A DNA stretch of 64,000 bases from Enoplolaimus lenunculus (GCA_030248215.1 JASANG010003910.1:124001-188000); one strand, 5' to 3'; counted from the stretch's first letter, positions 4,528-62,520 are shown. A program made the numbers and translations. The notes: generated by a model not told the origin, from the letters alone.

Positions 4528-4696
4528 AATTCAGTTCTCCAAATTACGAGTGAATTGATGTAGTATTGCTTGCTACACTTTCATATATATTATTTTGGGA
4601 TACATTCCTACAGGCAGAAAACACTAACATCTCAACATCATTTGGATTTGGCATTGGTTGCAGCCTTCTTTGCAATCACCTTCTAGTTCGTTGACG

Positions 4697-7269: not shown

Positions 7270-7361
7270 TGTTTTTCCTATATTTTTTATATTTTTTCAA
7301 ACAAAATGAAATTTCAGATTTTGTATAAAAATATAATACGTAAATATAAGAATAACTAACC

Positions 7362-8539
7362 ATGGCAGCAAGCGAAAGGACGAGCAATAACATAATAATC
7401 GGAGCAAATGGTCCTTTTCCGCAAACTGAAATAAACGGCTATGAATGCCACGATCTTGCTGAGTATGCACAGGTCACCGATGCTCAAATGTTTATAAGCA
7501 CCATCCCAGAAATTCAGAACCATAATTTTAATGGTATCGTATCAAATCCGTTTCAACAAGTTCCTGAATTCACCTTGGATAGCAACGTAACACAAGGCAG
7601 AACACCTATAACGTCAAGTCATTGCATAGAAGCTAATATCGTAAACACTACATCATGTTTGTTTAATTGGAGTGAAGCTGCTGACTATCTTAAATAAGTG
7701 TTAGCAGCTCAAATGTCTAATCATGTTTCGGAGGTCGCTCAAAAGTATTGGACCGTTGATATCACAAAACATCATGAAATCGATAAACAAATTACAAACA
7801 ATATCTTGAATGCAACTATGGAACAGCCAGCATCAACGGCTAAAAAGAGTTTTGTAACGTCTGTTTGTACCGAAAACCATGCGAAGAGAATTGTCACTAT
7901 TACTCTAAAGGAAATTTATGTGGACATTCGTCTAATCATAATTATTGCCAAGTGTGCGAAGGTTACCACTCATACCGTACTATACAGAAATTTCTCCATC
8001 GAGGAGGATCGTTTTGCTGCAGGTAAGTTTTTCGCCTTAAACATAAAGCTTAAAGTTAAATTTTTCATTTCTTACGCTAGAAAACGTATGTTAGCTTCTC
8101 ATAAAAATAAATATGCCACGGATATCTGTTGAGAGATACCTAACAGGAGGGCCCACAAAGGTTGTCACACCTTTATATGGCTAAACTTCGTTTCTATACT
8201 AGCTGCTATAAGTTTTCTTTACTGGTGTGGTTGCTTCGACCACAGCTACCTGAACCCTCATATAACTCTAATTGGAAATGTTAATTTTTGTTGTGCAGTT
8301 GGCATAAACCAGAAAACAGGGATGCGAGCATTCGCACTACAACAGTAAGCTGTTGCAGCAACAATCAGCTTAATCCCTGCATACACGTTCGCCTGATAGG
8401 AACATCATGTTGCAATCATCGTACCAACTGTCCATTCTACTGTAACTTGTATCCACTGCTATCGTTAAACAAACCACTGCAAGATACTGAAGTTTGTTTT
8501 CCATCACAAAAAAAGAAAATGGACAAAATATCAGAATAA
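7362..8539 (+). pseudogene. Two-exon accessory gene with a Cys/His-rich C-terminal region (exon 1 7362-8022, intron 8023-8298, exon 2 8299-8539); one stop and one frameshift
   Basis: ORFs 7362..7697 and 7698.. are one frame split by TAA. A shift in the A-run at ~7842-7846 opens CNVCLYRKPCEENCHYYSKGNLCGHSSNHNYCQVCEGYH...FCC. Donor ag|GTAAGT and acceptor TTGTGCAG|t are both phase 2, joining to SWHKPEN...CCSNN...CCNHRTNCPFYC. Confidence 0.62.
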
Positions 8540-9012
8540 TTTTATCCATGATGGTTGTTCTACTGAACTGTTTGTTAAGAAATTCTTTTTACAATATACA
8601 GCATTAGGAACATTTATAGACTTAAGGTAGTCAATGAACTGCTGAGTGTCGGTAGGTACATTTTTCTCGTATGGTAGGACTATATAGCGTATCAAATCTA
8701 TTATTGATGAAAAATTGTGGCCTTGAATTGATAACCTACCATTGTCATTGATGTTACCTTTTCGTAAAGAATGTAAAGTATTTTTGCCTTGTTGCCGTAT
8801 GCTTTAGGAAATAAATTTAAAACTTGTTCAAAAGTCGTCTGCTTTTCGCTCACCAGTTCAGGATTCACAAGGTCATAAAGTTTTTCATACTTCTCTTGAA
8901 CACTGGAGTTCGAATTCAAAATTTCAAAAGCCTTTTCTTCAAAACCAGAAGGGTTTTCTGGTAATTTTGGCAAAGGCTTTCCTTCATCAAATAATACTTT
9001 GACATTAGGCAA
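8531..9012 (-). pseudogene. Conserved uncharacterised Polinton protein, frameshifted near 8760
   Basis: VLNLFPKAYGNKAKIL, then after a frameshift NDNGRLSIQGHNFSSIIDLIRYIV...QQFIDYLKSINVPNAV...W. This resembles the conserved Polinton ORF usually found near the ATPase (P....KA..L / G.l...g...S.I.DL / F...L...NVP). Confidence 0.68.
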
Positions 9013-9325
9013 AAGCTTTTAGCAAAGGTAGTGCAATTTTAACGATATTTTTGACGAATTTTATATTATTGAAAATTAAGCGATTACGAGAAATAAGAGA
9101 CAAACTTCGTTCAGACAATTTTTGCAATAAGTTACGATTTTTCCTTAAATAATTTTTATTTACCTTTGATAATTCCAGATTCGAATATGCTAGATTGTAC
9201 GCTATTTCAGTTAAGCGCTTAACAATGGCAGGATGTGCCGAAATAATTTTTTTGGCTTTCTGCTGGTTAGAAATGTGTGACAATATTTCTAAATTGCCAA
9301 TGTTTGATAAAACAATATTCGACAT
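9005..9325 (-). CDS. Small basic conserved Polinton protein (~106 aa) downstream of the ATPase
   Basis: MSNIVLSNIGNLEILSH...LTEIAYNLAYSNLELSKVNKNYLRKNRNLLQKLSERSLSL matches the L.E.A.N.L.gn..Ls......L pattern of the small Maverick ORF. It overlaps the start of the next gene. Confidence 0.65.
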   Translation of the reverse strand: MSNIVLSNIGNLEILSHISNQQKAKKIISAHPAIVKRLTEIAYNLAYSNLELSKVNKNYLRKNRNLLQKLSERSLSLISRNRLIFNNIKFVKNIVKIALPLLKAFA

Positions 9326-9390
9326 ACCGTCAGATTGATAGATTTTGCGCAATGTACATCTATATATAGAAAATTTCTAATATTAAATTA

Positions 9391-10055
9391 TTACAAAATA
9401 AAAATCTCTTGCACCGTATCTGAAGGAAGTGATGACCGAAATTTCAGTAAACAGTGATTATAGGGACATAAGTTAATCCACAAAAACCCAAAAGTTGTTC
9501 CTGTAAAACCTGCTCATAAATTTCCAGAAACTTTTTAGTTTTGTTTGGTGCAATACTTTGCCCTAGAGTATTCACCTGTCGTAAATCTCTACGACAGGCC
9601 ATTAGAAATATGTGGGTCATTTGTCTGTTTATAAGCACGCTAAATTTTCCTTTTATAAACAGTCCTTGAAAAAGACAAATCACGGAAATATTTCGGTGAT
9701 GACTATAAACAGTGAAAAGTCTCATGCACTCAGCGGAATTTATAAATTCATGTTGCAGGTCATCGAAAACAAGAGCTGTATTGTTATTTGCCCAGTATTC
9801 ACTGTCATCAATAACTTCCTTTGGTAATCCTTTGTGAAAGGTGATATTGCGAATTTTCAATTTCAGTTTGTCATACGCAGGCTGGTAAACTTCATAGCAA
9901 AACAATATTTTGTCAAAATTTGTCAAAAAGAAATTTTCCGTCAGCAGACAAAAGCACAAATCCGTTTTACCGGACATTGACTCGCCCGCTAACAGTATTC
10001 TGCTGTTAGGTCTGATCCGAAGATCTGTTAATATTTCTTTTCTAAAAAAGGTCAT
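9391..10055 (-). pseudogene. Polinton genome-packaging ATPase (A32/FtsK-HerA type), with a C-terminal frameshift
   Basis: Walker A AGESMSGKT, Walker B LVFDDL, LFTVYSHHRNISVICLFQ. After a frameshift near 9485 the frame reads FLWINLCPYNHCLLKFRSSLP...IFIL* (stop 9391-9393). Confidence 0.93.
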
Positions 10056-10516
10056 AACTAATAGGATTTTTGGTTTACTAAACTTATTTGTATATAGTCT
10101 CTAAAACTGAAACGTTAATTATTTATGAAACAGCGCAAGCGCTGCTCCACCCGAGCACTGTAACCCCCCTTCCGCCCTTCTTCCTGCCCACCCTCTCCCT
10201 AGCACCAGCCAGGGAGAGCGGACAGAGAGGCATGGAAGGGAAGGACGAAAGGGGTAAAGAGGAAGGCGGTACAGCCTGCAGAAACCCTAACTCAAAAAGC
10301 TGTTGTACCAGACCCTTGTGATGATAAGGTGCACCGAGAACTGATGCTTAGGTCATAAGGCTTTCGCCGAGACCCGTCGCGTACCACAGCAAATAATGCA
10401 CCAAAATCATCAGGTCTGTACATAGCTCATCGAACCTACTTAATACACACATGAAGAACAACACTCGGTCCCCATATACATGCACTCACAAACACACTCA
10501 TTAATACAAATTTAAT

Positions 10517-11045
10517 CTAATTATTATAGTATGGAGTTCTGTTCGACTTGAAAACAAGATTTGTTGACTCCTCGCACAAAGCATACAACACAGTATCTTG
10601 TGCAATCGGAGTTTCAAACGTAAGCTTTATCTTTAAGTAGCCCACTGTTGACTTCTCCACGAACGACGAACAACCAATTGAATTGGAAGCCGTCAGATCC
10701 GCAATCCAAATTGTATAACCGCCAGGGAAATCATTATAGCCAATATCTATATTACGATTAATAAATCCTAAACCGTTGAAAATTAGGTAATAATCAAACG
10801 CAAAGTCATATTCTGAAAACTTAGAAGATAATCCTTCTGATGTGAAAACAGGTGTTTCGTTTTTGTAAAGTGAAAAATTAGTTAGACTATTGTGAATAAA
10901 CTCGAAGGGATTGAGTGTGATATCAGTGCCATCCGTGGCTCCTTTTTAACCATAAATACATACAATCGTTTAGTCATACTCCCTGCAGGAATTAGGGACC
11001 ACTGATGACTAGTATCATTCTTGCGAATAATATGTTCGTACAAGG
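10517..11045 (-). pseudogene. Polinton major capsid protein (double jelly-roll), 3' half only; not in the ORF track
   Basis: Manual translation: IPAGSMTKRLYVFMVK / GTDITLNPFEFIHNSLTNFSLYKNE...DFPGGYTIWIADLTAS...GYLKIKLTFETPIAQDTVLYALCEESTNLVFKSNR. This matches the Polinton MCP C-terminal motifs (NPF.F.H, GYT....DLT, G.L.....F). Similarity is lost above ~11045. Confidence 0.88.
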
Positions 11046-12355
11046 GTTACCGAAGAGGCGTTTAAAAGCCTCATCAGCAACCCTTACAATGAACTAAATT
11101 TCAGCAGCTTCACTATTTCACGAAACAAATATAATGCCGAAGTGTTCAGCTTAACTTCTACTAAACGATTTAAATTTACCTTGAATAAGAGACTTCTATG
11201 CAATGACTTGACGACTCGTTGCATTGGTGACAAGTCTGTTAAACGCAACGAACTTGCTTAATTCGTACCCACATTTTGATTCTGCGAAATGCTGATTACG
11301 TTGGTTGAATGTGCTACTATTTTTTATATTACTACTTTATGAAGGTTATAACTCTTATCGATGGCTATAACTTCTTGTTTGTACTTAGTTATATCTACTT
11401 GGAGTTAATTGTAACTACTTGCAGCTGATTACAACTACATGCATGGAGTTATAATCACTTGCAGGTAGTTATAACTACTTCCTGATGGTGATTATCTCTT
11501 TCCTTTATGTTTGTGCAGTAGTGTCTTGCACAACAAAATATACGCATGTGCAAAATATTGAGGGGGAGGTATATTTCAATATTAGGTCAAAGGTGTGGTA
11601 AAATTACGTTTTATATGACAAAATTGAAAAATGCACTGTTTTTTGTATAATTTTGAAACCAGATATTAACCTGCTGCAAGTAAGAAAATGCTGAAATTTA
11701 GCCATGCATGGTTGTATGAACCAGTGCAAATTTTCGAAGTACCCCTTCTCTTGTCATTATATAATTCATTTTTGAACTGAATTCTTCAAAATTAAAGTTA
11801 ACTCCATGACTTTGTTTTTTTGAGCGTTTTGCTTTCTTTTTTTCAATTTTCTACGGTAGTTATCAACATTTGATTTCATACCTAAATTTGGAATACGATT
11901 AATTGATCCAACAATCTTGGCATCATCATGTTTCTCAATTTGGTCCACAACTACGACACTATCATTCCTGTCAGTTTGTTCCAAAATCATGACATCATCA
12001 TCATCATCATCTGTATCCGTAACAATTATAACATCATCATCAACTGTGTCGGTTTGCGACGAAACAGTTTCATTGTCAGCAGAATATTCATTTGAAACAA
12101 TAGGTAAGTCATTCGCGTTTGTCACAACTGAAATCAGGCATACCTTGCCTAGACAATGGCTGATATGCTTTGGATCGATAGCCTAAATAGACATATTAGT
12201 TAAAGGAAATGTGATGACCAATATTTAGATCAAGAGGCATTCATGGATATGTAATGGTGCTTTCGCTATCGAACCATTAAATTTATTAGTACTTTTCGCG
12301 TAACCTAATACCTGTTAGACAGCTATTGCAAAAATATCTCTGTAAATATGTATAT

Positions 12356-12477: not shown

Positions 12478-12679
12478 ATGTATATGTCGACTTACTATTA
12501 CTTTCCATAAGTGAATTAATGTTGAGGTCCATTTGGTAATATCACTGTTGCTTCGTATGATAATTTCTTTGGGCTCCGTATAACTGTTGCACTAAGTGCC
12601 ACTATGAATTTTGTCCCATTACGTGCATCAACAACAAAATGATTTCTGCATAACATACAATCGCTCTGGTTTGGTTCAC

Positions 12680-12775
12680 TGATGATGATGATGTTGTTGT
12701 TGTTATTGTAGTTGTTATTGATGTTGTTGTCGTTGTTGTTGGGTGTTGTTTTTGTTGTTGTTGTTATTGTTGTTT

Positions 12776-12810
<35 letters not shown>

Positions 12811-13560
12811 GATGATGATGAGGTCATTGCTAATGATCGGGCTTCCATCGTAGCATTCACTTGTGTTTACATCGCTGTAGAATTGGTGATTGTCAATCAT
12901 TAGTTCGTTAAAAGCAAAGGAGCCATTACAGTCCTCACTATTGCTGTTGTTGTTGCTATTGTTGTTGCTGACGTTATTGTTGTTGTTATTTCTGAAGCTG
13001 TAGCTATTGTTGCTAATGTTGCTGTTGCTGCTGTGGCTGAAGTTGCAGCTATTGTTGCTAACGTTGCTGTTGCTGCTGTGGCTGAGGTTGCAGCTATTGT
13101 TGCTAACGTTGCTGTTGCTTCTGTGGCCGAGGTAGCTGTTGCTGAGGTTGCTGACGTTGATGTAGCCATGGTTGAAGTTGCTACTATTGTTGTCGACGTT
13201 TTTGTGGCTGAAGTTGTTGCTATTGTTGTCGTCGTTGTTGTTGTTGTTGATGATTTCGTCATTGCTAACGATCGGGCTTCCACCGTTGCATTCACTTGCG
13301 TTTACATCGCTATAGAATTGGTGAGTTAATCATTATAGTTCATTAAAAGCAAAGGAGCCATTACAGTCCTCACTATTGCTGTTGTTGTTGCTATTGTTAT
13401 TGCTGACGTTATTGTTGTTGTTTCTGAAGTTGTAGCTATTGTTACTAATGTTGTTGTTGCTGCTGTGGCTGAAGTTGCAGCTATTGTTGCTAACGCTGCT
13501 GTTGCTGCTGTGGCTGAGGTTGCTGTTGCTGAGGTCGCTGTTGCTGCTGCCATGGTTGAA
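12680..13560. repeat. GTT/GCT trinucleotide-rich minisatellite with a duplicated ~420-bp unit
   Basis: (gtt)n at ~12780-12810. The blocks cattgctaa-gatcgggcttcca and aaaagcaaaggagccattacagtcctcactattgct each occur twice, ~435 bp apart. Confidence 0.85.
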
Positions 13561-15867
13561 ATTTATACTATTGTTACGGGGCGTCATTTCAGGCCACCCA
13601 CTTCAAAAAGTTTCTGCTTCTGTTTCTTAGTTACTGTCGCCCCTTGTGCAAACTCCAAAGTGTGTGGTCGTCATAGTTTCATTGAACGACAATTTTGGTT
13701 GCAATTAAGACACCGTTTTCAAAGTTTTGTTGTCGATAGTATACTTTTCGTTTAATTATACTTTTCGTTTAAAGTTTGAATATTTTTACAAACAGAAACG
13801 GACGCATGCGCAATATTGTGGTGTTGATATCAAGGTGACATTCTGCTCGCCTGCGGGTGTCAAAGTTTGATAAATATTACTCGCAACTTTAAGTTTTAAA
13901 AGATTTTATTGCAAAAATGTTATCGTTCACGCAGAAAAAAGGAGATATTTCGTTTAAAATACAAAAGTTCGACCACTAATGAGTCTATTAATTACTTTAT
14001 AAAAATGGGTGCAGTACAACTATAAAAGAAGATGTAGCACCAGCTTTTAGCTTCAGTTTGAAAAAGTGAAATTTTCCGAGAGTGCAAGTCAATAGTGTTT
14101 GTAAGCGTTTGTTTTTCTGTTTTTTGTATACATCAATTGATTTTAACTGAAAGTTCATGCGGTGGTTATCCTATACTTACTGGTAAGTCAAGTTTAATGT
14201 TTCAAAATACAGATTAATTTATTAAAGAAGCCTAGATGGGCGCTTCACTACTTATCAATTGGTTCTGAAAATAATTTTAGAAACTTTATTATCATAGAAA
14301 AATTGAACATTGACTACAGACTTTTGGGTGCTTTACGATTTTATCTTGTGATGTTAATTCGAAATTAGGATTTTGATTTCGCCATTAAAACAATTGCCAT
14401 AGTAACCGAAACGTAACACTATTGTTGTTGACGTTGTTGTGGCTGAAGTTGCTGCTATTGTTGTGGCCGAAGTTGCCACTATTGTTGTTGCTGACGTCGT
14501 TTTGGCTAAAGTTGTAGTTATTGTTGTTGCTGACGTTAATGTTACCATGGTTGAAGTTGCTACTATTGTTGCCGACGTTGTTGTGGCTGAAGTTGCTGCT
14601 ATTGTTGTTGTTGATGATGCTGTTGCTGTGGTTGAAGTTGTTGTTGTTATTATTGTTGTTGTTGATGTTGTAGCCATGGTTGAAGTTGTTGTTGCTGCAG
14701 ATGTGGCTGCTGCTGCTGCTGACGAGGTCATTACCTTCATCATCACTTTCGATGTTAATTAAAGGTACTATATTATTCATATTTTTAAAATAGCTAAAAA
14801 GTTGTAACTTTCCAACATATAATCCGTGTGTTCAGAGCTAATGCATATTATCATCTATACCTAACCAGCAGCATTGTCGACTTTTGCCAAACCTGGAACT
14901 GGATATCCGTCACCTAACGACATATGCTGTTTTTACAAATTGTGTGGTAGCCTGTAATAACTTTGTTTATAAATTTTTCATGGCAGTTCTTAAATTTCTG
15001 ATTGCCAAGATTTATGCAACAATAATCCTGAAACCTAACTTTTAGAGCTCCAAAATTTTTAAGAAATTATTATATTCAATAACTTCAACAAAAATATTTA
15101 CTTAAAAGTTTGAAAACGCCTTTTTAATCCAAATCACGAGTTATTGTTATGGCGTCTTTGTCAATGTTTTTGTAAAATTATTGATTAAAATATTTATCAA
15201 AAATATTTACAAAAGACGGATAATAAAAACTCGTGATTTGGATCTAAAAGGCGTTTTCAAGCTTTTAACTAAATATTTTTGTAAAATGTTTCCAAAATTA
15301 GAAAATATAATAGCTTGAATATAAATTTTGTGCTTTAGAAACTAAATATATTAAGTATTAAGAAAAGCTTCATAACGGTAGGACAAAGCTTGCAAGCTAG
15401 CAATACATACAGATAAAAACATGGGCGGTACTGTTGAAGAATCAAAAAAGTTTTGCCTTTTAATAGTGCAAGAAAGGTATACGTCACTACCTATAGATGA
15501 CAGAACCTATACTAAAACATAAATATAGACTTATCATACAGTACGTGTAGTAAAATTTGAAGTTTGGCATAGAATTTTATGTAGTACGGCAAGGCAACAC
15601 CTCACTAAACTTTTATGTTAAACCGGAAATAACCATATTTGTTTTTCCAGAATTGCTAGAGTTCAACTGATAAGTAGGATGCAACAGGAACTAAAATTGC
15701 TGGAGCCGCAGATCAGCATCATTAACAAAGTTGTGTTTATCACAAAACTCTTTGGCAATATCAATTAGACACGTAAACTTGGTTGGCTGTAACGTTTTTG
15801 CGTACATATTGAAAGGCGAAGGTTAAAAACTAAACGCAATTGCTGGCAGCTGAACTATACAAATGAG

Positions 15868-16588
15868 TAAATTCCCAGAAAATTATAGACGTTTTAGTAA
15901 AACGTTTTTGTAACTGTTATCACTACGTAAGCGACGCTACTAAGATTGACGATTAAAATGTCAATTAATGCCAAGAAATATCCTTCATAGAAAATTAATC
16001 AAACAAAGGTTTAAGGTTTGATAGCAATGTACGCGACGCCACGTAACCGTGTACTAACAAGACTGACGGTGGTCCGTACATAGAACTGGAACTTAACAGT
16101 AGTATAAGCATATTTCTAAGCGTAAGCCTAAACCTAAGCCTAAGCGAAAATATGAGCCTATACCTAAGCCAAAGCAAAAAATTAGTCTATAGCTTACTCT
16201 ATCACAGTCCCTCGGGAAAGGTTACAAAAAATTAAATTCCTAGAAAACTATACACGTTTTAGTAAACAAGACGTTTTTCTAGCTGTTATCACTAGGTAAG
16301 CGATGCTACTAGGATTGGAAATTAAAATGTCAATAAATGCCAAGAAATATACTTCATAGAAAATTAATCAAGCAAAGGTTTAAGGTTTGATGTCAATGTA
16401 CGGGCGCCACATAGCCGGGTACTAACAAGACTGACGGTGGTCCCTACATAGAACAGGGTCGTAACAGTATAAGCATATTTCTAAACGTAAGCCTAAACCT
16501 AAGCCTAAGCGGAAAGATGAGCCTATACCTAAGGCAAAGCAAAAAAAATGGTCTAAAGCTTATACTATTACAGTCCTCGGGAAAGGTT
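15868..16588. repeat. Tandem duplication of a ~365-bp unit containing a CCTAAG/CCTAAA-rich interspersed repeat
   Basis: 15868-16222 and 16234-16588 align throughout. A related reverse-oriented copy lies at ~28965-29097 (cagggtcgtaacag...aagcatat...gtctaaagctta). Confidence 0.85.
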
Positions 16589-17243: not shown

Positions 17244-17890
17244 TCTGTGTTTTAGTTTCCTTTAGTCGGCTGCCAGAGGCCTTTTGAAATTATTCAAAAA
17301 CATCAAAAACCACACTAACATCCGAAATCCTGCTTAGAAATATATTAGTGTGGTCGGCAAACTTAGTTTCTCGGGGTTAATGCCGTATAGTGGTATCCCC
17401 GAAATTCTTGAAGATATTCGAAGATAATGAGCTACCACTTCCGCTGTTATGATATATAATAACGGCGATAAGGGACACCCTTGTCGAATTCCGTGGAAAA
17501 CATGAAGAAATTCTGACTTAAAACCATTAACTATGATAGATGATCTTTTGATCATGTTTAAAAAGTTTTCACCAAAAATTCATGACCCTAAGTGTCTCGA
17601 AAATAATCGACCACTCCACCAAATCAAAAGCGGCTTTGTGATCAACGGATAGCAGCAACGCCTTTGCGTTGCTTTCATTGGCATAATGAATAACAGACAT
17701 GACATGTACAACACTGTCTTGGATAATTCTGTCGGGAACCGAGCTTGTCTGATCCGGGTGGTCTAAAGTTTTCATGGCAGATTCTAATCTTTTTGCCAAA
17801 ACTTTCGTAAAAATCTTATAATCTATATTCAGCAACGTAACTGGCCGCCAATTATCGCGACACGTTTTCGCTCCATTCCCTTTATATAAT
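17244..17890 (-). pseudogene. LINE ORF2 reverse transcriptase core, frameshifted
   Basis: NWRPVTLLNIDYKIFTKVLAKRL, HPDQTSSVPDRIIQD, LLSVDHKAAFDLVEW, GIRQGCPLSPLLY, degenerate catalytic motif KFADHTNIF. Confidence 0.93.
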
Positions 17891-18276
17891 GTGTCATCCA
17901 CGTTAAAATGTGCGCACTAATGTAAGAAATTGTCCAACCACCCGGTAGGGATCTGTGTACATATCGAAGCTGCAACTAGGGTGTAGGTACAATTTTGTGC
18001 GGTACGTAGACACTGTTAATTGTCCCGACACTGTCCGAAGGTCAGAACAAAAGGTTAAAAATTAAGAAAAATAATTAAGTGTATATATGTGTTTGTGTTG
18101 TTGTTATGTATGTTTGCGATGCTATATGAACACAGTGCAATATGTCTTTACGTCCTCCTTAGGGACTACCGGACTTTATAGTGGTCTCAGAATAGAGTGT
18201 GTTAAAACGACATGGGGCCTTACTCAGACCAGGACAAATTCTTATAATAGCGCACGCATTATACCGTAGATGACCC
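17891..18276. mobile_element. 386-bp non-autonomous TIR element (GRG-like termini, Sola2-like), 5-bp TSD
   Basis: Termini GTGTCATCCACGTTAAAATG and (reverse complement) GGGTCATCTACGGTATAATG. ATAAT is duplicated at 17886-17890 and 18277-18281. Removal restores the LINE frame ITLLYKGNG...DNWRPV. The superfamily is tentative. Confidence 0.82.
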
Positions 18277-18921
18277 ATAATAGGGTAATAACACCATCAT
18301 ATGCAGAGGAATTAAGCTTAAGATCATGCAAGAAAGCTTTGTACATTTTACACAAAAATTCAGATAATATTCCACAAAACAGCCAATAGAATTCAACAGG
18401 AATACCATCGTACACCGGCGTCTTTTTACCCTGCATGGATTTAATAGCGCTCGCTATTTCAACTGACGTAATGGGTCCCTCTAAAGTATTTTTCCACCTC
18501 ACTCAACTTGGAAAGACCATTTTGTGCCAGAAAAAATGTGAGATCTTCTCCGCTTGTCCCTTCCGATCTGAATACGTTGGAATACTGCTCAGTAATTTCA
18601 CCTAGAACTGCATCTGAGTCTGTTACTAACGTGCCATCAGACCTTTCGATCGAGCTTATATGCCTGGCTTCCCAGTTCTTACGTTGAAGAGACTTGGCTG
18701 TTGCTAACGAGGCATTGTCATTTACCTCACTGCTGTAATAAGTATTATGCCTGCAAGAAGCAATATAAAATGCGTTCAATAATTCGATTTCATTTTTTAG
18801 CTTTTGCTTTTTAAGAACCGATCTGAGATTCGGATATTTGGATACTGCCATATCAGCATTTGTACATTAATAACTTGGCTCTCTACTGATTTCCTCAACA
18901 TGTCGTGTTCTTTAGCTTTAT
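18277..18921 (-). pseudogene. LINE ORF2 EN-RT linker and RT domain 0
   Basis: ISSIERSDGTLVTD...EITEQYSNVF; LEGPITSVEIASAIKSMQGKKTPVYDGIPVEFY (the KSPGPDG motif). Confidence 0.9.
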
Positions 18922-20259
18922 GAGTCGTCCACTTTATCTTGCGCCCGCGTTGAGGAAAATGAATCGGTGTAAACCCGCATGGAAAATTGCAAAAGTTAAA
19001 TTTTTAATAGAATAGGAAATTGAAAAATTGTTTTAAAATTTAACATTTCAGTTTCCCACTACGGTTCTAAAGTTGTCCCGTACTAGTAAATTGTAGTTCA
19101 AGATTCTTATCAAATTACTAGTACGGTCACTGTAAATTGACCTCAGAGGTCAATTAAAATCACAAAATTTTAAACACATGAGTTGATTTATTTAATTATA
19201 ATAATAATCGACGGCAGTGGTAAATTGAAATTTTAGACGCAGATGATTATATTTACCCGATTTTCGAATAAATTTTCAATAAATTAAAAGTACATAAGTA
19301 TATTTTCCCCACTTAGATTTCTAAAATTTTAAGGCAAAATTAAAAATTTCTACAAATCAGAAAGGTTAAGAGTTCAACAGCAATGTGTTCGTCATGTGTG
19401 GCCTCGTGGGTGGTCGTGCAGGTGTAGGTAAGTATGAAGTTTAAAGTATATGTCATTATTGATGGCACTACCGAAAAGGTAACCAAGGATCCAACACGCC
19501 TAAACACATCTTTGCTTAAAGCCTAAGCGTTAAACATTTCTTTGCTTAAAGCCTAAGCGTTCTATATTTTAATTGATGCGGCCAATGTTACTTGAAGCAG
19601 AAGGCCAATGTTACTTTTAGTTGTTTTAGAAAAACAAACATAAGTTTTTTAATTACGGCAACATGATTAATCCGGAACCCGGCTGTTCTGCTGAGATTGG
19701 AACACTGCGCTTTAATATGCGACACTATGAACTTTTACTTGATACATATTACATTTGACAACATGCAGTTGTTAAATGTATATAAACTTCCGGAATATGG
19801 CTTAGGTAAATAATTCTTGAAGCAGAATGCCAATGTTACTTTTAGTTGCATAAACAGTAGATTAAGCGTATTCCTAAACCTAAGCGTTGCAAAATGTGTA
19901 CCAAAGCCTAAGCCTAAGGAAAAAACTGTAATTTAGAATCAAATCCTACTTTTACAGAGCCATCAAAACCTTGACGTCCCTACAAGTAACATGGGCTTTG
20001 AAAGTAATACATTCACTATGAACTTTTCCTTGATTACATATTCCATTTAACAACATGCAATTGTTAAATGCATATAAAACTTCCGGAAAATGGCTTACGT
20101 AAATAATTCTTGGAGCAGAAGGCCAATGTTACTTTTAATTGTTTTAGAAAAAACAAAGTTTTTTAATTACGGCAACATGTTTACTCCGGAACCCGGCGGT
20201 TCTGTTGAGATTGGAACACTGCACTTTAATATGCAACACTATGAACTTTTACTTGATAG

Positions 20260-21923
20260 AAACGGAATAATCGTGAAGCTAATGGGGGAAGTGGTAAATG
20301 GCTGAACCGAAAATTGCGGTCGAATTCAATTTATAATTTGCCGAATAACAGCAGAACTCCAGGATTCAGATTTGAAAATGGAACATCACAAACGCCTGAC
20401 CTTATTCGTGGATGTGAAGACCAGTTCGATAGGAGATTGTTGGATACATTGACTAATGCAAATGCAACTAACCTGGACACCGGATTGGTCACTGGGCTAG
20501 CAGCGGCCGTACTTCCTTGCTGTCGACGAAATCTAAGAGTAAGCGAATGTTATAAATGTTTATAAGCACCCGTGTCAAAAAATGAATTTTGCCTGTATAA
20601 AAACCACAACACTAAAAATACAGAGTTGGCAAAGCTGCTAATTCTAGTGCTTGTAAAAGCATATATAAACTATTTTACAGATTGAGTGATGCGTATTATA
20701 AGAATGGACAGCCTTAAATAGTCTACCTTAAATTTGAACAGTTAATATCCTCTCTGACAACCAAAAAACAGCCTTAAATAGTCTACCTTAAATTTGAACG
20801 GTTTATTCTGAAAATTCAGATAAACAATGGTTTTTGAGTGAAGCGAAACTCCGAGCGAAGCTCGGAGTCTCGCGAAGCGTTTTATGTTTTGTACTTGGGG
20901 GTCGAAAGGTGGATGTCCGTCCGTCCGTCTGTCCGTCCGAAAAGAATCTCAGGAACGGCTAAACCGATTTTGATAAAATTTTTTTGTTTGAAAGCCAATT
21001 ATCCTGGGGTGTTAACCTCGCATTGAGGTTTTAAAATTTTGAGCCGTTTATTAGCTACAGGCTAATTTGCATAATTAATTAAGCATAAATTAGGACTTTC
21101 CACAATATTTCACTAATTATTACAGTTAGAAGCAATCTAATTTTAGCATTAAAGGGTTTTTGGTGCAAGAAATCTGCGTAGACTGTTTACAAACCTCCAA
21201 AACCGATAATTGAGCAGTTAGCTAATAGATAATTTGCATATTAACATAGTTTATAAGCCTAAATTAGGACATTTTACAATATTTCACTAATTATTAAGGT
21301 TAAAAACAATATAATTCCAGCATTAAAGGGTTTTTTGGTGCGAGGAATTTGAATAAATAGTTTACAAACCTCCAAAACCGATAATTGAATAGTTGGCTAA
21401 TAACAAATTTGCATATTAGCTTAATTCAAAAAACAAAATTAGGACTTTTTAAATTATTCCAAAAATTATTAGAGTGGCTGAAGGGTTTTGGGTGCGGGGA
21501 ATCCGAGGAAATTGCTTACAAACCTCCAAAACCGATAAATGAATAGTTAGCTAACAAGTAATTTGCATATTACCTTAATTGCTTACGTGCGTTCGAGCTT
21601 CGCTCAATAAATGTAGTCCCACTACGACTGGTTAGGTTAATTTTCAACAAATAGGTGGGCATGCCTGGGTGATTGAGCCACAGGAGTTTAGCTCGTCTTG
21701 CTGTATTGGACGGTGCATGGGACATGGAGGGTTTTATTCACTGGCGCATTCGTTGTACGCCTAAATAATGATGTCCACAGATGAAGTACGTAAAACTGGC
21801 AAAATGCCATGTTGTGTGCCAGTGGCTTTCGGTCCACTACTGGTAACAATCCGAGAGAACGCTGATGAAGAAGTGTTGAAATACCTTGAAAGTATCGTTG
21901 TTCGACAGTGTGGCTGCCTCTGA
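20260..21923 (+). pseudogene. TGF-beta superfamily ligand (cystine knot), two exons 20260-20538 and 21636-21923; one in-frame TAA at 21762-21764
   Basis: Joining aga|GTAAGC to TTAG|gtt (phase 0) gives ...RKLRSNS...RGCED...LPCCRRNLR|VNFQQIGGHAWVIEPQEFSSSCCIGRC...YA*IMM...MPCCVPVAFGPLLV...LESIVVRQCGCL*. All TGF-beta hallmarks are present (CC, W.I.P, CxGxC, PCCVP, CGC), plus an RxxR furin-type site. The 5' exon boundary is uncertain. Confidence 0.9.
20831..21633 (+). mobile_element. Helentron-associated interspersed element (HINE/DINE-1-like)
   Basis: Inserted in a T-run. Subterminal IR GAGCGAAGCTCG (~20853) / CGAGCTTCGCTC (~21594-21605); (GTCC)n microsatellite at 20915-20939; core ATCTCAGGAACGGCTAAACCGATTTTGA; three ~170-bp tandem units at 21085-21570; 3' hairpin GTAGTCCCACTAC then CTGGTT. 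Confidence 0.82.
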
Positions 21924-22187
21924 GAGGTTTTTTGTTCTTGTTTCGTTTTTTATTAAATTGCCGTTTTACATCATTTTTTGTTAATTTTACAACGAGTAGA
22001 ATTGTTATGATTTAAAAGACCACACACGTTTATTGTTAATATTGCAAGGAATAGAATTTTGGGTCAATTTTACTTCCTTTGAGGTCATATTTAAAAGACT
22101 ACAAAATTGTTAATCTTTCACCAGGTGAAGTGGGAAATTGAGAGTTTCATTTTCCACAACGCGGGCGCAAGATAAAGTGGACGACGC

Positions 22188-23102
22188 ATTATTTTACCCA
22201 ACTTTACAAAGAAGGTGTTAACATCAGCCTTAAATACTTCCCACATCACAGAAAACCCAGTGGAAATGTTCGTTAAATGGTAGAGCCGCGTTAAAACAAA
22301 GGTCTGCACGCCGACTACACTCAAAAGCAATGTATTCATCTTATAGTATCCTTTACCTCTCTTTAAATTAGGTAAGCGAATCTTAACTCTAAACAACCTA
22401 TGTCTGTCTTGTTCACTGCGCGAGCAGTACACAAACCGCCTGGTTGTAAAAAGCCGGCATATAAATCCGATCTATACGAGACTGACTTCCATGAATGTCT
22501 GAAAGAAAAGTAAAGAAATCGTTATTTGGATGAGCCTCCCTAAAAACGTCAGATATCACCAACAGTTCCTTCAAACAATAAAGCTCTCTCAGGCCTTTCT
22601 GCTGATCATATGACGGGCGTGATCGGTCCAAAACCGGGTCCTCAACTAAGTTAAAATTACCCAACATAATAACACATTTATAATCAAACCAAAACGAATT
22701 TTGCACTTGTTGCATCAGCTGGTTGAAAAAAACTACTCGCTGCTCGCCGTTCGTGGGAGCATACATACCAATTAAGAAAAAAGAGAGCCAATACTAAAAG
22801 CAATCGTGATCGCCCTACCCTGAATATTAAAAATGTTTTCAATTTGACCAACAGGTGCTATCCTATTTATAAGGACCGTTACCCCTGTTTTACTATTCTG
22901 CTCGCTTGCTAAGCTGTGAACTATTTTAAAATTGCGTGAGAAAATTCTATCAAAATTCTCTGCGTCCCAATTGTTTTCAAATTGTCTCTTGCAAACAAAT
23001 CTCCAAATCTTTTAACCTTTCAAAAACTATCGACACTTTTCGAAAATGCTTAATGGATCTGCAATTTAAAGTGGAAAAAGAAAAGAAATTTGACAGATGC
23101 AT
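22188..23102 (-). pseudogene. LINE ORF2 N-terminal APE-like endonuclease, frameshifted
   Basis: ATG at 23102: MHLSNFFSFSTLNCRSIK...EICLQET; MYAPTNGEQR; VIMLGNFN; FFTF...SRIDRIY; RGKGYYKMN. Confidence 0.9.
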
Positions 23103-25094: not shown

Positions 25095-28000
25095 TCTTTA
25101 ATACGCCGTTTCGTTTCGCGATTATGCCTTGATGTTGCAAACACGTCGTATCCGAGATCGTCAGAATATGATAAGTAAACGTTTGACACATTATCCATGT
25201 CATCTAACTTAAATCAACACCATATATTAACAAAGTTCGTTAGAAAAAACGAACAGACATAGATATTGACAATAATAAGGTTCATAGAGTGTACAGCTAG
25301 AGGTCCATTACTCTGCAGGCATGCAGTCATAATGTATTTGGTTGAATTCTGCTAGAAAACCAATACATTTTCCGAACAGATAACTGCGAGACCCTGTTGT
25401 GTGCTTGATACCGGCCTTGTGTGGATTGCATATATCTCCAGAGAACATTGAAAATCCGCAAGTAGGGCACATGTGGATGTGACTGCTAATTTGCATTGCC
25501 CAAGAACTGTTGAATAGTGCCAAATTTTATCACGGAGGTTAATATAATATTTTTACGGTTACTATGCAAACCATGCCTATTCTGCAATCAAAGAACTCAC
25601 TTTATGGTAACTATGCATCTTTTTGATATTATTATGAATAAAAATAGCAGATACAGTATTTGAGGTAAAACTGCGACTATACAGCTGTAACTGTACGCTT
25701 ACTTTATACCATTGGTCGCTTTTATCTGGTGTTAGAGGGTTGTCAGAGCATCCAGATGGATCGTCAAGAGCTGTAGCGTCTATAGCATGCTGTTTGATAT
25801 TGTTGCCTGCGTACGCAACACATTTTAATTGCCAGTCGCCAATTTCGTCGTTCCATTGACAGTTTTGTTCAATGAGGTCCTGGTAAATAATTTTTACATC
25901 TTAAGGCGTACAATACCCTAACTGAAACGTTTAAATACTATTGCGAAAACTAAAATGAGCTATTTTTCGATTCGAAATTTTTTATGCGTTTCGAGACTTA
26001 ATGCACAATTCTGAAACCGTCGAGACTCCGATAGTCAAGTTGAACTATTGTGCAGTTATTCAGAGGGACTTTTCAATGTCAGATTGTCAGTCGTCAGTTT
26101 TAATACAACGTCACTAAATAACATAACGCTGAACCAGGTCGTATACATGTGGGATGAGGAAATACATCCCCCAGGCGTTTTTAGAGACTGAAAACGGCAC
26201 TTTCAGGTTGTAAACTAACCTACAAAGATAAAACATTTTCCCACTCCTTACACTCGCTCGCAAAAAAGTAAAACGTGGTTATCTCCTCTCGAAATCAAAT
26301 CGTGGTGTGTGCCCCTGCACTGAACATTACATAACAATATAGTAAAATTGTTTGAAATACTTTTACTGCCAAGTGGGAGCATTCACGTTACAGCCGCATG
26401 TACCTGATATTGCTTTGGAATGTATTCGTCGATAATAAGTTGATGTAGAGCAAGTTCCCGACTCAGCTCACGAACGTTGTCAAGCAGTTCTTCGGTTTCA
26501 CGTTGCTGTTCATTTTGAATGTCGGTAAGCTGAAAATAGAAAAAATGAACGGTATTATGCTGACTCAAAAAAACCAATGCAGAGTCCACAATATCATTAT
26601 GTCGTCGGCCACAGAACTGTCCGGGTGCTGGAGGAAGCCAGTGTATATTTTGCAAACTCAAAATGGGTTAACTATGAAGAAAAATAAATTGGAAATTTTG
26701 ACGTTATGGCCATAATGAAGATGGTGATTTTTAATGGTATTTTTTTAAAAAGTAACTCAAATAGAATTTGTTTCTAAACACACCTTTAAGTAAAATAGCA
26801 ATAATATTATGTCAAATTCTTGACGAATGAAAAAATAAATATTGTAGTAATAAAACTAGAACACGAAACCATAATTACAATATCATAAATATACCAATTT
26901 GATTTTAACTTAAAAGAAATACCTCTGCTTTTGCCTCTTGCAACATTGTCCAAACTTTTTTCAATTTCTTAGATTTGCCAGCAGCCTCTTCTTGTAAACT
27001 CGAGTATATTTCTTCCATATCAATTCTTTCAGCCTAAATTACGATATACGCACGTCACGGTACCGTTTACACATGCAAGAGTTTTAAAATATTCAAGGTG
27101 AAGTTTCACACGTACCGTGCTTCCCATGTTACTTAACCAGTTAACCATAAGTACCTGTTTCTGCTCAAGCGCAAGACGCAACGCAGTTTCTTTTGCATGC
27201 CTTTCTTCAAGTTCAACTTTCGATTCTTCCAATAACCGCGCTTGCAGTTCAGCTTTTTCCAACAAATTTTCGCCACCAACAATAACTTTTCGTTCAAGTT
27301 GTTCTAGCTTGCGAACCAGTTCAGTGTGCTGCTCACTAAAATCATAGTGATGCTTACAATCAATCGCTTCAATCAGAGATAAAATAACCAGATGGATACT
27401 TTCCAGTTACGAATCGGTGATTGATTAAAAATTTGTTAAAGACGTTAATAATCAATGGTTGAGTTTCTGAAATCTTATTTATGTCTCCGATTTAGCTAAT
27501 GACGTAGCTTTTTAGACAAGGAAAGAAAATGTTATTTTTATGGCAGTGCGAGATAAAGGAAGATATAATTTTATTTAATATATACGAGGTACCTTGGCTG
27601 CAGTCTTAAATTAGTCCAAGGATAGGTGAAATACTTTCGCTGGCTCAACTATTTACTTCACTTAAATGCGCTTTTTGAAATTCAACCAATGTCTTCTGCA
27701 CTTTAGTGTTGCCACAACTGGCACGTCTAACTCTTATGTATTACTGAAGTAACAAATTTTAAAATTTGCTAACTTGGTTTATGTGAACTACAAAGTTAAA
27801 AAATTATCACTTACTGTGCTTTTGCAAGCAACGCTTCTCGCGCACAAAGTGCTTCAGTAATAGCTGCTCTTTCGCTATCAGCCAAATCTTCCTCAAGCCT
27901 TGCGCGTTGCGCAGCGATTTCTGCTTCAAGTTCCTTCAAACGTTGTTGATCGTCGTTGTCATCTGTAAAAACTTTTACAAAGTGTTTAGCCCTACTTTTT

Positions 28001-31000
28001 AAAGCTTAATGAAAATACAAATATCACTAAACCCGACCTTAATGCAGTATACCATTGATAAATTTTTCTTACACCAAGAGTGAATAAATCATACGTTTCT
28101 TGGGCTTCCGCGGTTCAGTATTTCCACATGAATTATAATTGTCATTCTCAATTTGTGAGCTACAACCGTCAGACTCATATTCTTCACCTGAAACAATCAA
28201 TGATTACAAATAGGTATATAACAAAGGATTTTTTAAAAAATTTGTAATTCAACATGTAGACAACAAAGCCTGTTGCTAAGATAGTTTTATTTTAGTGCTA
28301 CAACAAATCGTTCCAATGAAATAAAATAAACCGTTAATCACATGCTTATAGCTCATTTCAAGAGTGTATTTGAAAAGCGCTTCGCCGTACAAACAAGCAT
28401 GCATCGTGTATCTAGTGTACTTTGCTTTCCCAAAACATTCTAGTTATAAAAAAATGGACAGAAAGATTGATCATCTTCTGCCACAAGCTGTTTACAGTTA
28501 TTACAGAAGAATACAGTTAACCTGTTACAAGGAGCGCCATGCTTTTTTAAAAATTTAGTGCCATTCACCGCTGTACGTTAACTTTTGGTTTGTTGCGCGG
28601 CACCGTACAAGTATAACGTCACCCTAAACGTACATGTGATGACCTCTAAGATTCTTTACACTGACTTGTTTAATCCACCAACTTTGATGAATAGACGGCT
28701 TTTTAATCTTACCTTCTTCAGCGGCAAGTTGCTTGCGCAGTTCGTCAATTTCTTGCTGAAATTTGCGTAGCAACGCGTCTTTCGGATCTTCATTAATTCT
28801 AGCGCTATTTTTGATATTTTTAGCCCGATTTGCATATCGCAATGTTGAGACAGTTTCGTCGTAATTATAATCAGTTGGACCAATGTTTGCAATCTGTTTA
28901 ATGTAATGCGCACACGATTACCCATGTATAGATGAAGTGCGGACCATTTTTTGCGGGGATGCAATAAGGTAAGCTTAAGCTTTAGACTATTTTTGCTCAG
29001 GTTTACGCTTAGTTATAGGATTATCCTTACGCTGAGGCTTTTTGGTTACGAATATATGCTTATACGACTGTTACGACCCTGCTGAATTCATGGACCCGAA
29101 GATCTACAATTACGGAGAGAATTTAGTAAAAGTGCAATTTGTATTTTGAACGCGGAACACCACATTTGTTAGGAAACGTGCTTCCGTTCACAATTAATAC
29201 GATAACGATCATGATGACTAGTACTCATATTTTCAATCGCAAATAAGCTTGATAGTAATTTACACACATATTGCTGTTTGTGACTGTATAACATTTGCTC
29301 CGTGTTATTGCACAAGTGCTCAGAATATTTACTATATCACAATACCACGTTTGATTAATTAATGGACAGCGAAATTTATACCGAAACTATTAATGATAAA
29401 TATTTACATTGGTAACATGGACGTTTGCCAAGGAATCGGGCGTTAGGTTTGCACGCAAAATTTTCTCAACGTGTAAATACTTTAGTTAATTTCTCCCAAC
29501 CTACGTAATAAATTAAGTCAATTTCACCCAACCCTCCAAAAGAAACCCAAAATGCCAAGCGCTACACAATGTGACCCGTGAAACAAGATCCTGCATACGC
29601 TCTGATGAATAAAGTGCAAGTACCATAACAGTTTTCGAATTTCCGCCTAATGAATCCTGCAGCAAGCGTGTTAGCTTTGAATTACGGTAGGGAATATGCG
29701 TGGCTTTAGAATCAACCAAAGCCGAAATAACGTTTCCCAAAGTTGATAACGACAAATTGATTTTTGTAGCTTCTTTCAAAGTTTGACCCGTTGCTCCGGA
29801 TTTGCTTTGCCTCTCTGAGCCCTAAAATTATAACAGAACATCAATGATCACCACTGCCAACTTCTACTGTTACAAGAAGCTTAACATATGAGGATTGACC
29901 TGTTTGTGTTGATTTAGAATTATTTTGCAAACAACCCGTAAATGCAAAAGATGATGCAAAACCGGTGTTACAATAGCAATATTTCAAAATAGGAAAGTTT
30001 TTGCACATTCGCGGACAGATAGCGCATACAACCAAAAACAAAATGTTAATATCATTCACACTTACCGCCAGATCAACTAAATGTAGCTTTCCAACCCGCA
30101 CATGCTCTTGTCCGTCAGCGCCGCGCTCGCTGCATTCAACTGTGACGGTGAATATTGCATGTGACCGAGAACTGTGGGCGTTCATCAAAGTTGCTCCAAC
30201 AGATCCTGTAGTTTTTTACGCAATCATATCAATTAGTCACCATCACATTTCGTTCTTATAATTTAGGGCTTTCGTTTTGCAACAAGCGTTCTTACACCTG
30301 CGTAATATGTGCATAAGTGACAAGCTTAAACTCATACATAAGTATGGCACAAAACGTGGCGATACAAGAATCGGTGTTGAAAATTTAACAGCTAGACGTT
30401 TATAGACGTTTACATTGGTCTAAAGATTAAGTTGCATAGTATCAATGACACATTGTATGAATGCGTTGTGTTCTGTGTTCGTATCTGTTCTTAACTAAAA
30501 TTTAAGCCAGTTTTAATTAAAGTGTTTTATTAAAACTTGAACTTATTTTTCGCTATCATCCAAAACTACGATTGATTGTTGGTGTTAACCGGCAACGGTA
30601 TGTTTAAATAAATTATCAGTCGAATCAGCCTACTTGTATTTCTAATAGAAAAGCTACTTCTATTTCCGTGTTTCTGGCCGTTGGTTTTCAGTGGTATGCC
30701 GTAACAGCCAACTACGAAACCATCCACTTTTTGAGAATTTTACTTAACCATTTACGATCAGATTAAACTTTTAATATTTTCAGCTGTTAGCTTAACTTAC
30801 TATTTCTATTACCAACAGTCATTATGCTATCCATTTCATCAGCGCTACCAACGGTAACATTTGTAAGGTCCTTTACGTAAACACCGATATCTGATCGTTC
30901 TTTTAACTTAAATGCAAACTCATACGTTAATACATTACTATTGCAATATTTGATCTGATAATTGTCAGAAAACATGATTCAAAAGCGGACGTATTATTCA

Positions 31001-35418: not shown

Positions 35419-35766
35419 CAGGGTGCAACCGCAATTCCGGTTCCGGCATATTTTCACCTTCCGGTTCCGGTAAATTTTTACCGGATTTAAAAATTCCGGT
35501 GTTATAATTTGGCCGTTTTCTTAACTTTGCTAATTTTTAAGAATCTCTTTTGAAAGCCACTTGTACTCCGAATATAAGCCATTGATGGTGGATTTCACTT
35601 CAGTCGATGATGAAAATCTAAAATACAACAAATAAAATAAATACCTATGTTCGACTAAGGTTATTTCACAAATAATAGAGCAAAAAATAAGATTAAAATG
35701 AAATTTTTGGTGGAATGCATTTTTCACTTTCCGCTTCCGGTAAATTGTAATTCCGGTTGCACCCTG
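35419..35766. mobile_element. hAT-type MITE (family A)
   Basis: CAGGGTGCAACC...GGTTGCACCCTG; TSD ATAGGGAT at 35411-35418 and 35767-35774. Confidence 0.9.
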
Positions 35767-46005: not shown

Positions 46006-46396
46006 CAGGGTGCAACCGGAATTACAATTTACCGGAACCGGAACCGGAATTTGAAAATTTTACCGGAACCGGAACCGGAAAATGAAAAGTGCATTTCATT
46101 AAAAATTTCATTTTAATGTTATTTTTTGCTCTATTATTTGTGAAATAACCTTAGTCGAACGTAGGTATTTATTTTATTTGCTGTATTTTAGATTTTCATC
46201 ATCGACTGAAGTGAAATCCACCATCAATGACTTATATTCGGAGTACAAGTGGCTGTCAAAAGAGATTCTTAAAAATTAGCAAAGTTAAGAAAACGGCCAA
46301 ATTATAATACCGGAATTTTTAAATCCGGTAAAAATTTACCGGAACCGGAACCGGAAGGTGAAAAATTGCCGGAACCGGAATTCCGGTTGCACCCTG
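46006..46396. mobile_element. hAT-type MITE (family A)
   Basis: Perfect TIRs, (ACCGGA)n subterminal repeats, TSD CTATATAC on both sides. Confidence 0.92.
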
Positions 46397-62508: not shown

Positions 62509-62520
62509 AAATATATATAT

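What the first reader, a model, noticed from the sequence alone, without database searches (positions are those of the whole stretch)
18922..22187. TGF-beta-family ligand gene packaged inside a DNA transposon
Seen: between near-perfect 42-bp TIRs, themselves inserted in a LINE ORF2, lies a spliced gene for a complete cystine-knot domain (CCRRNLR|VNFQQIG..WVIEP..CIGRC...PCCVP...IVVRQCGC). It has an upstream extra Cys and an RKLR furin-type site, and the only lesion seen is one TAA. A possible short 5' exon ends at g|GTAAGT near 19428. There is little room for the usual long prodomain and no transposase. Established: the CC plus extra N-terminal Cys pattern is that of the TGF-beta/activin/myostatin branch. 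Inference: a Pack-type element that captured and may be amplifying a divergent signalling ligand; the intron indicates DNA-level capture, not retroposition. A mobile growth-factor gene would be unusual in animals.
Basis: partly seen in the sequence, partly recalled or inferred. Interest (0 to 1): 0.9.

Follow-up and report, generated by a model that had tools for sequence, protein, structure and literature searches.

The report
Transposon carrying broken nematode TGF-beta gene
A 3.3-kb cut-and-paste transposon, in what is likely a nematode genome, carries the back part of a TGF-beta growth-factor gene with its intron; this copy has a stop codon, two related versions are broken too, and unbroken relatives likely lie outside the transposon, so it is likely a decaying passenger and not a working mobile signalling gene.

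Summary
43-nt TIRs (41/43) with a TTA duplication bound 18921-22188 inside an old LINE whose empty site exists in other copies. The cargo matches PF00019 (61 bits) and groups with clade I nematode TGH-2 (Trichinella, Trichuris, Romanomermis; support 99). The extra Cys is homologous. No transposase, signal peptide or prodomain was found, and a HINE-like repeat splits the splice acceptor, so the stop is not the only defect. Contigs of two samples show five versions of exon 3. The three tied to the element's 3' end are each broken (stop; 1-bp deletion; 10-bp deletion). Two gap-free versions (82%, 86%) read a sense codon, leave the element at the stop codon and differ mostly at silent sites (12 of 18), while this copy's own changes look neutral (3 of 9). 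Best reading: a low-copy Pack-TIR that captured part of a host tgh-2-type gene at DNA level, probably moved afterwards, and is decaying. Separate loci are not shown; amplification of a working ligand is not supported. New member of a known kind. Interest 0.4.

The parts
18918..18920 (.). left target-site duplication TTA
   Evidence: same triplet at 22189-22191
18921..18963 (+). 5' terminal inverted repeat, 43 nt, starts TG
18964..19346 (.). 5' subterminal DNA shared with several related elements (inner boundary approximate)
   Evidence: 3-11 contigs per run differ at 18964 and 18977; depth falls to about two units after about 19386; contigs branch at 19347
19370..19427 (+). possible upstream exon piece ending at a strong donor (intron from 19428); unproven, no homology, poor signal peptide
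19591..20257 (+). tandem partial copies of a unit of about 225 nt that spans an intron/exon-like junction, interrupted by a high-copy repeat at about 19829-20013
20260..20538 (+). exon 2 in the mature-ligand frame: RKLR at 20308-20319, extra Cys, CCRR. It starts at 20260, or at 20148 in another frame that would need a frameshift near 20260
20539..21635 (+). phase-0 GT-AG intron, 1097 nt (about 300 nt without the later insertion)
20836..21632 (.). HINE/DINE-1-like insertion: 12-nt subterminal inverted repeats, 5' hairpin, GTCY array, 175-nt tandem repeats, 3' stem-loop; lies inside the T-tract of the acceptor
21636..21923 (+). exon 3, most of the TGF-beta domain (PF00019), with a premature TAA at 21762-21764
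21924..22032 (+). 3'-UTR-like stretch, held by about two versions only
   Evidence: depth and pieces
22033..22145 (.). 3' subterminal DNA shared with several related elements
   Evidence: depth rises; joint 21928-22033
22146..22188 (-). 3' terminal inverted repeat of a high-copy family, ends CA
22189..22191 (.). right target-site duplication TTA
17572..18917 (-). host LINE ORF2, 3' part with reverse transcriptase, degraded
22192..22793 (-). host LINE ORF2, 5' part (endonuclease-like), degraded

Best explanation
A transposase-free DNA transposon holds the intron-containing back part of a tgh-2-type TGF-beta gene that it likely copied from a host gene and likely carried to at least one further place, and the cargo is now likely a decaying pseudogene. 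Inferred sequence of events: a member of a high-copy TIR family with TWA targets took up a host segment (from about 19350 to 22032) by template switching or gap repair at DNA level; a HINE-like repeat entered the intron acceptor; the loaded element was copied in trans by a transposase encoded elsewhere and one copy landed in a LINE; each version then gained its own lesion. Shown: TIRs, TTA duplication, empty site, domain identity, the stop, several versions of exon 3. Inferred: which versions are host genes, separate loci, the order of events, the capture mechanism.
For: TIRs and TTA on both sides; empty LINE site in X1 and X3. TIR family is abundant, with many unrelated flanks starting TTA (12 and 16 contigs) or T+AA (7 and 19 contigs). 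Five exon-3 versions in both runs laid: this one; A (89%, 1-bp deletion at 21710, continues into the same 3' stretch); D (10-bp deletion at 21876, joined to 22033); B (46 differences in 250 nt, no gap); C (27 in 197 nt, no gap). A, B and C read a sense codon at 21762. B and C stop aligning at 21921/21925 and run on 411 and 632 nt (X1) with no piece or joint to the TIR listed. Of 27 assignable exon-3 differences, those on the B/C side are 12 silent to 6 replacement (p 8e-5 against 22.6% expected; 0.006 against 35%), those of this copy's line 3 to 6 (p 0.33). No prodomain or signal match; five TGH-2 relatives have 127-357 aa before the furin site. Intron position shared with another version.
Against: No contig links the cargo to a second insertion site: contigs break at the TIR, so A may be an allele, and about 100 nt identical between A and this copy (21831-21932) point to allelic exchange or gene conversion. 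Depth is not a copy number and disagrees between the samples. Only 40 of 78 difference rows were shown, 28 in exon 3; 1 was dropped as unassignable; carriers were inferred from depth sums; polarity is unsure for 5 of the 9 rows of this copy's line; the two ratios do not differ significantly (Fisher p 0.13). Tables of pieces and loose ends were cut (227 and 65 rows hidden). The empty-site joint is one base longer than a TTA duplication predicts. The 5' ends of B and C were not seen. All data come from one study, which may include the source of the window.
Confidence: 0.55

Rival explanations
1. One-off capture: a resident non-autonomous element in the LINE was gap-filled with the tgh-2 segment and never moved again; A is a divergent allele and D a fragment.
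For: In X3 this copy and A each have about half to three quarters of the depth of B and C (45-71 against 84-90); they form bubbles with shared stretches; A's 3' stretch differs between the samples. Tan et al. (PMC8277862, section 7) find all but four animal Pack-TIRs single-copy.
Against: 11% divergence in exon 3 is high for alleles; both samples hold this copy, A and D together; D has its own junction to the subterminal DNA. The LINE empty site lacks any element, though it comes from other LINE copies.
Confidence: 0.27
2. The element once carried, or somewhere still carries, a working short-prodomain ligand and is a route by which tgh-2 paralogues multiply; B and C could be older transposed copies that lost their TIRs.
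For: The three element-type versions have three different lesions, so exon 3 was open when they split. The whole mature region, an R-X-X-R site and a donor/acceptor pair in matching phase are present. The host holds at least two gap-free relatives.
Against: No gap-free version continues into the element's 3' end; no Met, signal or prodomain match; the acceptor is split by a repeat that A appears to share; neutral-looking changes; daf-7-type paralogues are common in nematodes without any reported transposon (PMC9733428, passages; 'transpos' 0 occurrences).
Confidence: 0.1
3. Two independent small elements of the abundant TIR family happen to flank a host pseudogene.
For: The TIR family is high-copy (depth 8749 in X3).
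Against: The same TTA on the outer sides, one LINE continuous across the block with an empty site, and no inner TIR at up to 6 mismatches in the window.
Confidence: 0.05

Closest known systems
Animal Pack-TIRs (Tan et al. 2021, PMC8277862; passages and section 7 read, supplements not read)
   Same: Host sequence between the TIRs of a non-autonomous element, with a target duplication; DNA-level capture; low copy number.
   Different: Cargo is nearly the whole mature domain of a signalling ligand over two exons. 87% of their cases are hAT or TcMariner; this one has a 3-bp TWA target. 'nematode' does not occur in their main text, but the species list is in the unread supplement. Only four of their cases are multicopy. 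Unlike Drosophila Ssk-FB4 there is no sign of a protein.
Trichinella spiralis TGH-2 and clade I nematode relatives (PMC11682454; abstract, passages, section 13 read)
   Same: Nine-Cys mature domain, long N-terminal extension with the C-E-x-x-[WF]-D motif, CIGRC; 35-41% identity over exon 3 to the named members, 49% to an unnamed one.
   Different: TsTGH2 has a signal peptide, a prodomain of about 250 aa and RPKR; none is found here. Extra tenth Cys, premature stop, long branch (0.84).
PIF/Harbinger and Zator non-autonomous elements (bioRxiv 10.64898/2026.05.26.728016, PMC12905397, PMC10045372; passages read)
   Same: 3-bp TTA/TAA target duplication; TIRs of a few tens of bases.
   Different: Termini are TG..CA; G-starting ends for these groups and YR..YR ends with 3-4-bp duplications for Academ are recalled, not checked. 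No transposase was found to place it.
Transposon-flanked mobile developmental genes: tesD between Zator-1 arms in amphioxus (PMC12905397) and the GsdfY supergene between CACTA elements in Takifugu (PMC9191631); passages read
   Same: A regulatory gene relocated with flanking DNA transposons; Gsdf is a TGF-beta ligand (recalled), so a mobile TGF-beta gene has a precedent.
   Different: Those units are tied to sex determination and are composite or about 100 kb; this is a single 3.3-kb element with a truncated, broken cargo.
HINE/DINE-1 non-autonomous Helentrons (PMC4067079; passages read)
   Same: The intron insert has 12-nt subterminal inverted repeats, a 5' hairpin, a microsatellite, central tandem repeats, a 3' stem-loop and a T-rich target.
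   Different: Its autonomous partner was not identified; the 5' subterminal repeat lies 17 nt from the end, not 2-4.

Membership tests
TGF-beta superfamily ligand | PF00019 domain with seven-Cys cystine knot | tested here: met
   61.2 bits, cut-off 27; Cys aligned
TGF-beta/activin/inhibin branch | two further Cys (N-terminal Cys and CC) | tested here: met
   criterion from PMC11682454 section 13
TGF-beta superfamily ligand | furin-type site before the mature domain | tested here: inconclusive
   RKLR fits R-X-X-R only; spacing 31 aa against 16-60 in five relatives
TGF-beta superfamily ligand (working gene) | signal peptide and prodomain in one open frame with the mature domain | tested here: not met
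   no Met in frame, no profile or pairwise match upstream, premature stop; no signal-peptide predictor was run
clade I nematode TGH-2 group | clade with named TGH-2 proteins and shared N-terminal motif | tested here: met
   18-row clade, SH-aLRT 99, quick tree of 154 rows and 138 columns; motif; names
DAF-7 orthologues | groups with C. elegans DAF-7 and not with TIG-3 | not tested
   no named DAF-7 or TIG-3 was in the tree; PMC4924289 reports clade I members in both groups
Pack-TIR | TIRs at both ends with target duplication, no transposase | tested here: met
Pack-TIR | parental copy of the cargo not linked to the transposon | tested here: inconclusive
   B and C run 411 and 632 nt past the stop without a listed TIR match; their 5' sides and loci are unseen
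multicopy Pack-TIR | same cargo at several loci with distinct target duplications | not testable with these tools
   no genome held; contigs break at the TIR
PIF/Harbinger | 3-bp TWA target duplication | tested here: met
   criterion; Zator shares it
PIF/Harbinger | partner element with DDE transposase and MADF/Myb gene sharing the TIR | not testable with these tools
   TIR scan of metagenome contigs found nothing
HINE/DINE-1 (intron insert) | subterminal inverted repeats, 3' stem-loop, T-rich target, high copy number | tested here: met

The most novel reading that the evidence does not exclude
A TWA-target DNA transposon in a clade I nematode moved a still-open TGF-beta ligand gene with a very short or missing prodomain, and this route produced working tgh-2 paralogues (B, C or an unseen intact copy): a growth-factor family expanded by cut-and-paste transposition, possibly bearing on host manipulation if the worm is a parasite.
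Probability: 0.1. Interest if true: 0.8.

Novelty: new member of a known kind. Interest (0 to 1): 0.4.

Why it matters
It is a clear case of an animal DNA transposon picking up a multi-exon piece of a signalling gene, in a lineage and (probably) a transposon group for which I found no such report (searches; listings only). If A and D prove to be separate loci it joins a short list of multicopy animal Pack-TIRs. It also shows at least two fast-evolving tgh-2 paralogues in one clade I nematode and offers a testable mechanism for the frequent duplication of daf-7-type genes in nematodes. As it stands the cargo looks dead, which limits its weight.

Tried and rejected
Whole-genome search: no genome held. 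RNA junction: no RNA holder listed. My early idea that the extra Cys and RKLR were out of frame and that 20306-20449 was prodomain: rejected, the Cys motif aligns with TGH-2 and that frame has no match. A second TGF-beta prodomain at 6281-6679: rejected, it is antisense to a kinase frame and no mature domain lies near. A no-duplication insertion (18920-22189) would keep the LINE frame, but the joint 18921-22192 and the TTA/TAA flanks favour a 3-bp duplication plus a one-base loss in a T run. The apparent stop in version B at 21720 comes from scoring sites singly; a second change in the same codon makes it a replacement. Word-index protein searches with exon 3 found nothing; the TGH-2 profile found 6 proteins of 261-442 aa, none closer. 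Metagenome scans for the TIR and for TGH-2 loci were empty. The protein atlas gave no result. The careful tree did not finish; the quick tree is reported. No structure was predicted. Earlier findings by place, sequence and the first word search were empty.

Full report
1. The element. The arms 18921-18963 and 22146-22188 match at 41 of 43 bases; extends them to 44 nt. The longest exact inverted match is 29 nt; 200 base shuffles gave at most 20. TTA stands directly outside both ends, so the element is 18921-22188 (3268 nt), TG..CA, with a 3-bp duplication. No other copy of the TIR lies in the window at up to 6 mismatches in 25 nt. The flanks are two halves of one degraded minus-strand LINE ORF2: reverse transcriptase on the left (57.5 bits), an endonuclease-like frame on the right (E 0.071, below cut-off). 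Contigs of runs X1 and X3 join 18921 to 22192 at high depth, which is the empty site in other LINE copies. That joint is one base longer than a TTA duplication predicts; a one-base loss in the adjacent T run explains it and the frame offset seen. None of 16 stop-free frames scanned matches a transposase.

2. The TIR family. No genome is held. Three DNA runs of one study, two samples, hold 61-65% of the sampled words; no RNA holder is listed. The 3' TIR is covered at summed depth 1779 (X1) and 8749 (X3) against 10-100 over the stretch after the stop codon. Contigs leave the window behind 22191 (12 and 16 contigs, so their flank begins TTA) or behind 22189 with a consensus starting AA (7 and 19 contigs, so TAA), and many enter at 22135-22153 from unrelated interiors. 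This is an abundant family with TWA targets and varied insides. TWA duplications are typical of PIF/Harbinger (passages) and seen for Zator (passages). The TG..CA ends do not fit what I recall for these groups, and without a transposase I do not assign a superfamily.

3. The cargo. Exon 3 (21636-21920, X at the stop) matches PF00019 at 61.2 bits and 61 solved TGF-beta family sequences. Among 1.84 billion representatives, 370 score E 0.001 or better; the best is unnamed (49%), and the best named ones are from Trichuris suis (41%), Soboliphyme (39%), Romanomermis (39%) and Trichinella (35%; cluster includes Tgh-2a). In a quick tree of 154 of 155 domains the window copy falls in an 18-row clade with all seven named TGH-2 rows (SH-aLRT 99; 138 columns, long branch). 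The host is therefore likely a clade I nematode (inference). Whether TGH-2 is DAF-7 or TIG-3 was not tested (PMC4924289, passages).

4. More than one defect. The mature frame has no Met and starts behind TGA TAG. Five relatives have 127-357 aa before the furin site; here no upstream piece matches a TGH-2 profile or any of 13 prodomains (15 pieces, best z 3.1 of 195). Prodomains in this group diverge fast, so this is weak on its own, but the space is small and mostly repeats. A donor at 19428 and an acceptor at 20147 match in phase and give about 60 open codons, but in a frame that needs a shift near 20260; an acceptor at 20259 is in frame but meets a stop at that donor. The 5' structure stays open. 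A 797-nt HINE-like repeat lies between TTTTT and TAG of the exon-3 acceptor (features from PMC4067079, passages), which likely weakens splicing. A tenth Cys stands where relatives have Tyr.

5. Other versions. One search shows five exon-3 versions in both runs laid. This copy (X3 depth 64.5). A: 21 differences and a 1-bp deletion at 21710 in 190 nt (71.2), continuing into the same 3' stretch. D: a 10-bp deletion at 21876 and a joint from 21928 to the subterminal DNA at 22033 (65.1). B: 46 differences in 250 nt, no gap (83.7). C: 27 in 197 nt, no gap (84.8). Three contigs per run, A, B and C by their depth sum, read a sense codon at 21762. B and C stop aligning at 21921 and 21925, and their X1 contigs run on 411 and 632 nt with no piece or joint to the TIR listed, though 227 pieces were hidden. 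A contig of 719 nt links the end of exon 2 to the start of exon 3 across an unlike intron interior (joint 20550-21632 in all three runs): the intron position is ancestral, which supports capture as DNA. A second version of 19347-19639 (17-18 differences, 4 gaps) is seen in X2 and X3.

6. Selection. Of 78 differences 40 were shown, 28 in exon 3; one could not be assigned and was dropped. With carriers inferred from depth sums, differences shared by B and C or private to B are 12 silent to 6 replacement (expected silent share 22.6%; p 8e-5, or 0.006 at 35%). Differences where A sides with B or C against this copy are 3 silent to 6 replacement, the stop included (p 0.33). The two ratios do not differ significantly (Fisher p 0.13). 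So purifying selection on the versions outside the element is shown on a partial table; neutrality of this copy is compatible with the data, not proven.

7. Alleles or loci. Unresolved. In X3 this copy and A each have 45-71 against 84-90 for B and C, which fits two alleles or two hemizygous insertions. In X1 the depths (18-25, 10-19, 10.5, 26, 8.6) fit neither neatly. The tool states that depth is no copy number. About 100 identical bases between A and this copy amid 6-11% divergence suggest exchange. Three versions together in both samples, with D's separate junction, make at least two places more likely than one (inference).

8. Mechanism and comparison. The anatomy is that of an animal Pack-TIR. 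Tan et al. found 370, all but four single-copy, and propose gap filling for single and template switching plus transposition for multicopy cases (PMC8277862, passages and section 7; the supplement with the species list was not read). Relocation of developmental genes by flanking DNA transposons is reported for amphioxus tesD and Takifugu GsdfY, so a mobile TGF-beta gene has a precedent. Duplication of daf-7-type genes is common in nematodes (PMC9733428, passages). Three searches (20 of 59, 0, and 12 of 33 listings seen) showed no TGF-beta ligand inside a single TIR element. Earlier notes of this scan describe similar dead captures in other genomes (unchecked).

9. Verdict. Observation largely right, with more lesions than noted. 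Best explanation: a low-copy Pack-TIR with a truncated, decaying tgh-2-type cargo that likely moved after capture (0.55). Rivals: one-off capture with alleles (0.27); a route for working ligand copies (0.10); chance flanking (0.05). New member of a known kind; interest 0.4.

Noticed in passing
window 4600-12200: A cluster that looks like a Maverick/Polinton-type element: a Walker-A ATPase frame (9447-10100, minus), a capsid-like frame (10520-10945, minus) and a broken kinase (4628-7266, plus; Pkinase E 5e-6, below cut-off). The Maverick label is recalled resemblance; Pfam and PDB searches gave no support.
   Followed up: partly
window 12500-14830: Long low-complexity TGT/GTT-rich arrays with open frames on both strands.
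   Followed up: no
window 27030-30215 (minus): Exons of a host kinesin gene (Kinesin 107 and 47 bits); resemblance to kinesin-II is recalled.
   Followed up: partly
window 20836-21632: HINE/DINE-1-like Helentron derivative, extremely abundant in the runs (summed depth in the hundreds of thousands).
   Followed up: yes
window 19829-20013 and 16117-16181: A second very high-copy repeat family built on CCTAAGC-like units, inside the element and again upstream.
   Followed up: partly
window 35459-35744, 46068-46407, 51813-52142, 55038-55180, 62144-62887: At least five 93-98% alike copies, in both orientations, of a dispersed repeat with CCGGAA arrays.
   Followed up: no
window 37741-38537: GC-rich 21-nt minisatellite of about 29 copies.
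   Followed up: no
window 376-1171 (minus): LINE-like C-terminal frames, perhaps a second old LINE; no Pfam hit for 809-1171.
   Followed up: no
protein P0004 (unnamed): Closest relative (49%), 313 aa with two basic sites and a short, unusual N-terminal part; it and the window copy branch at the base of the TGH-2 clade, which may be a long-branch effect.
   Followed up: partly
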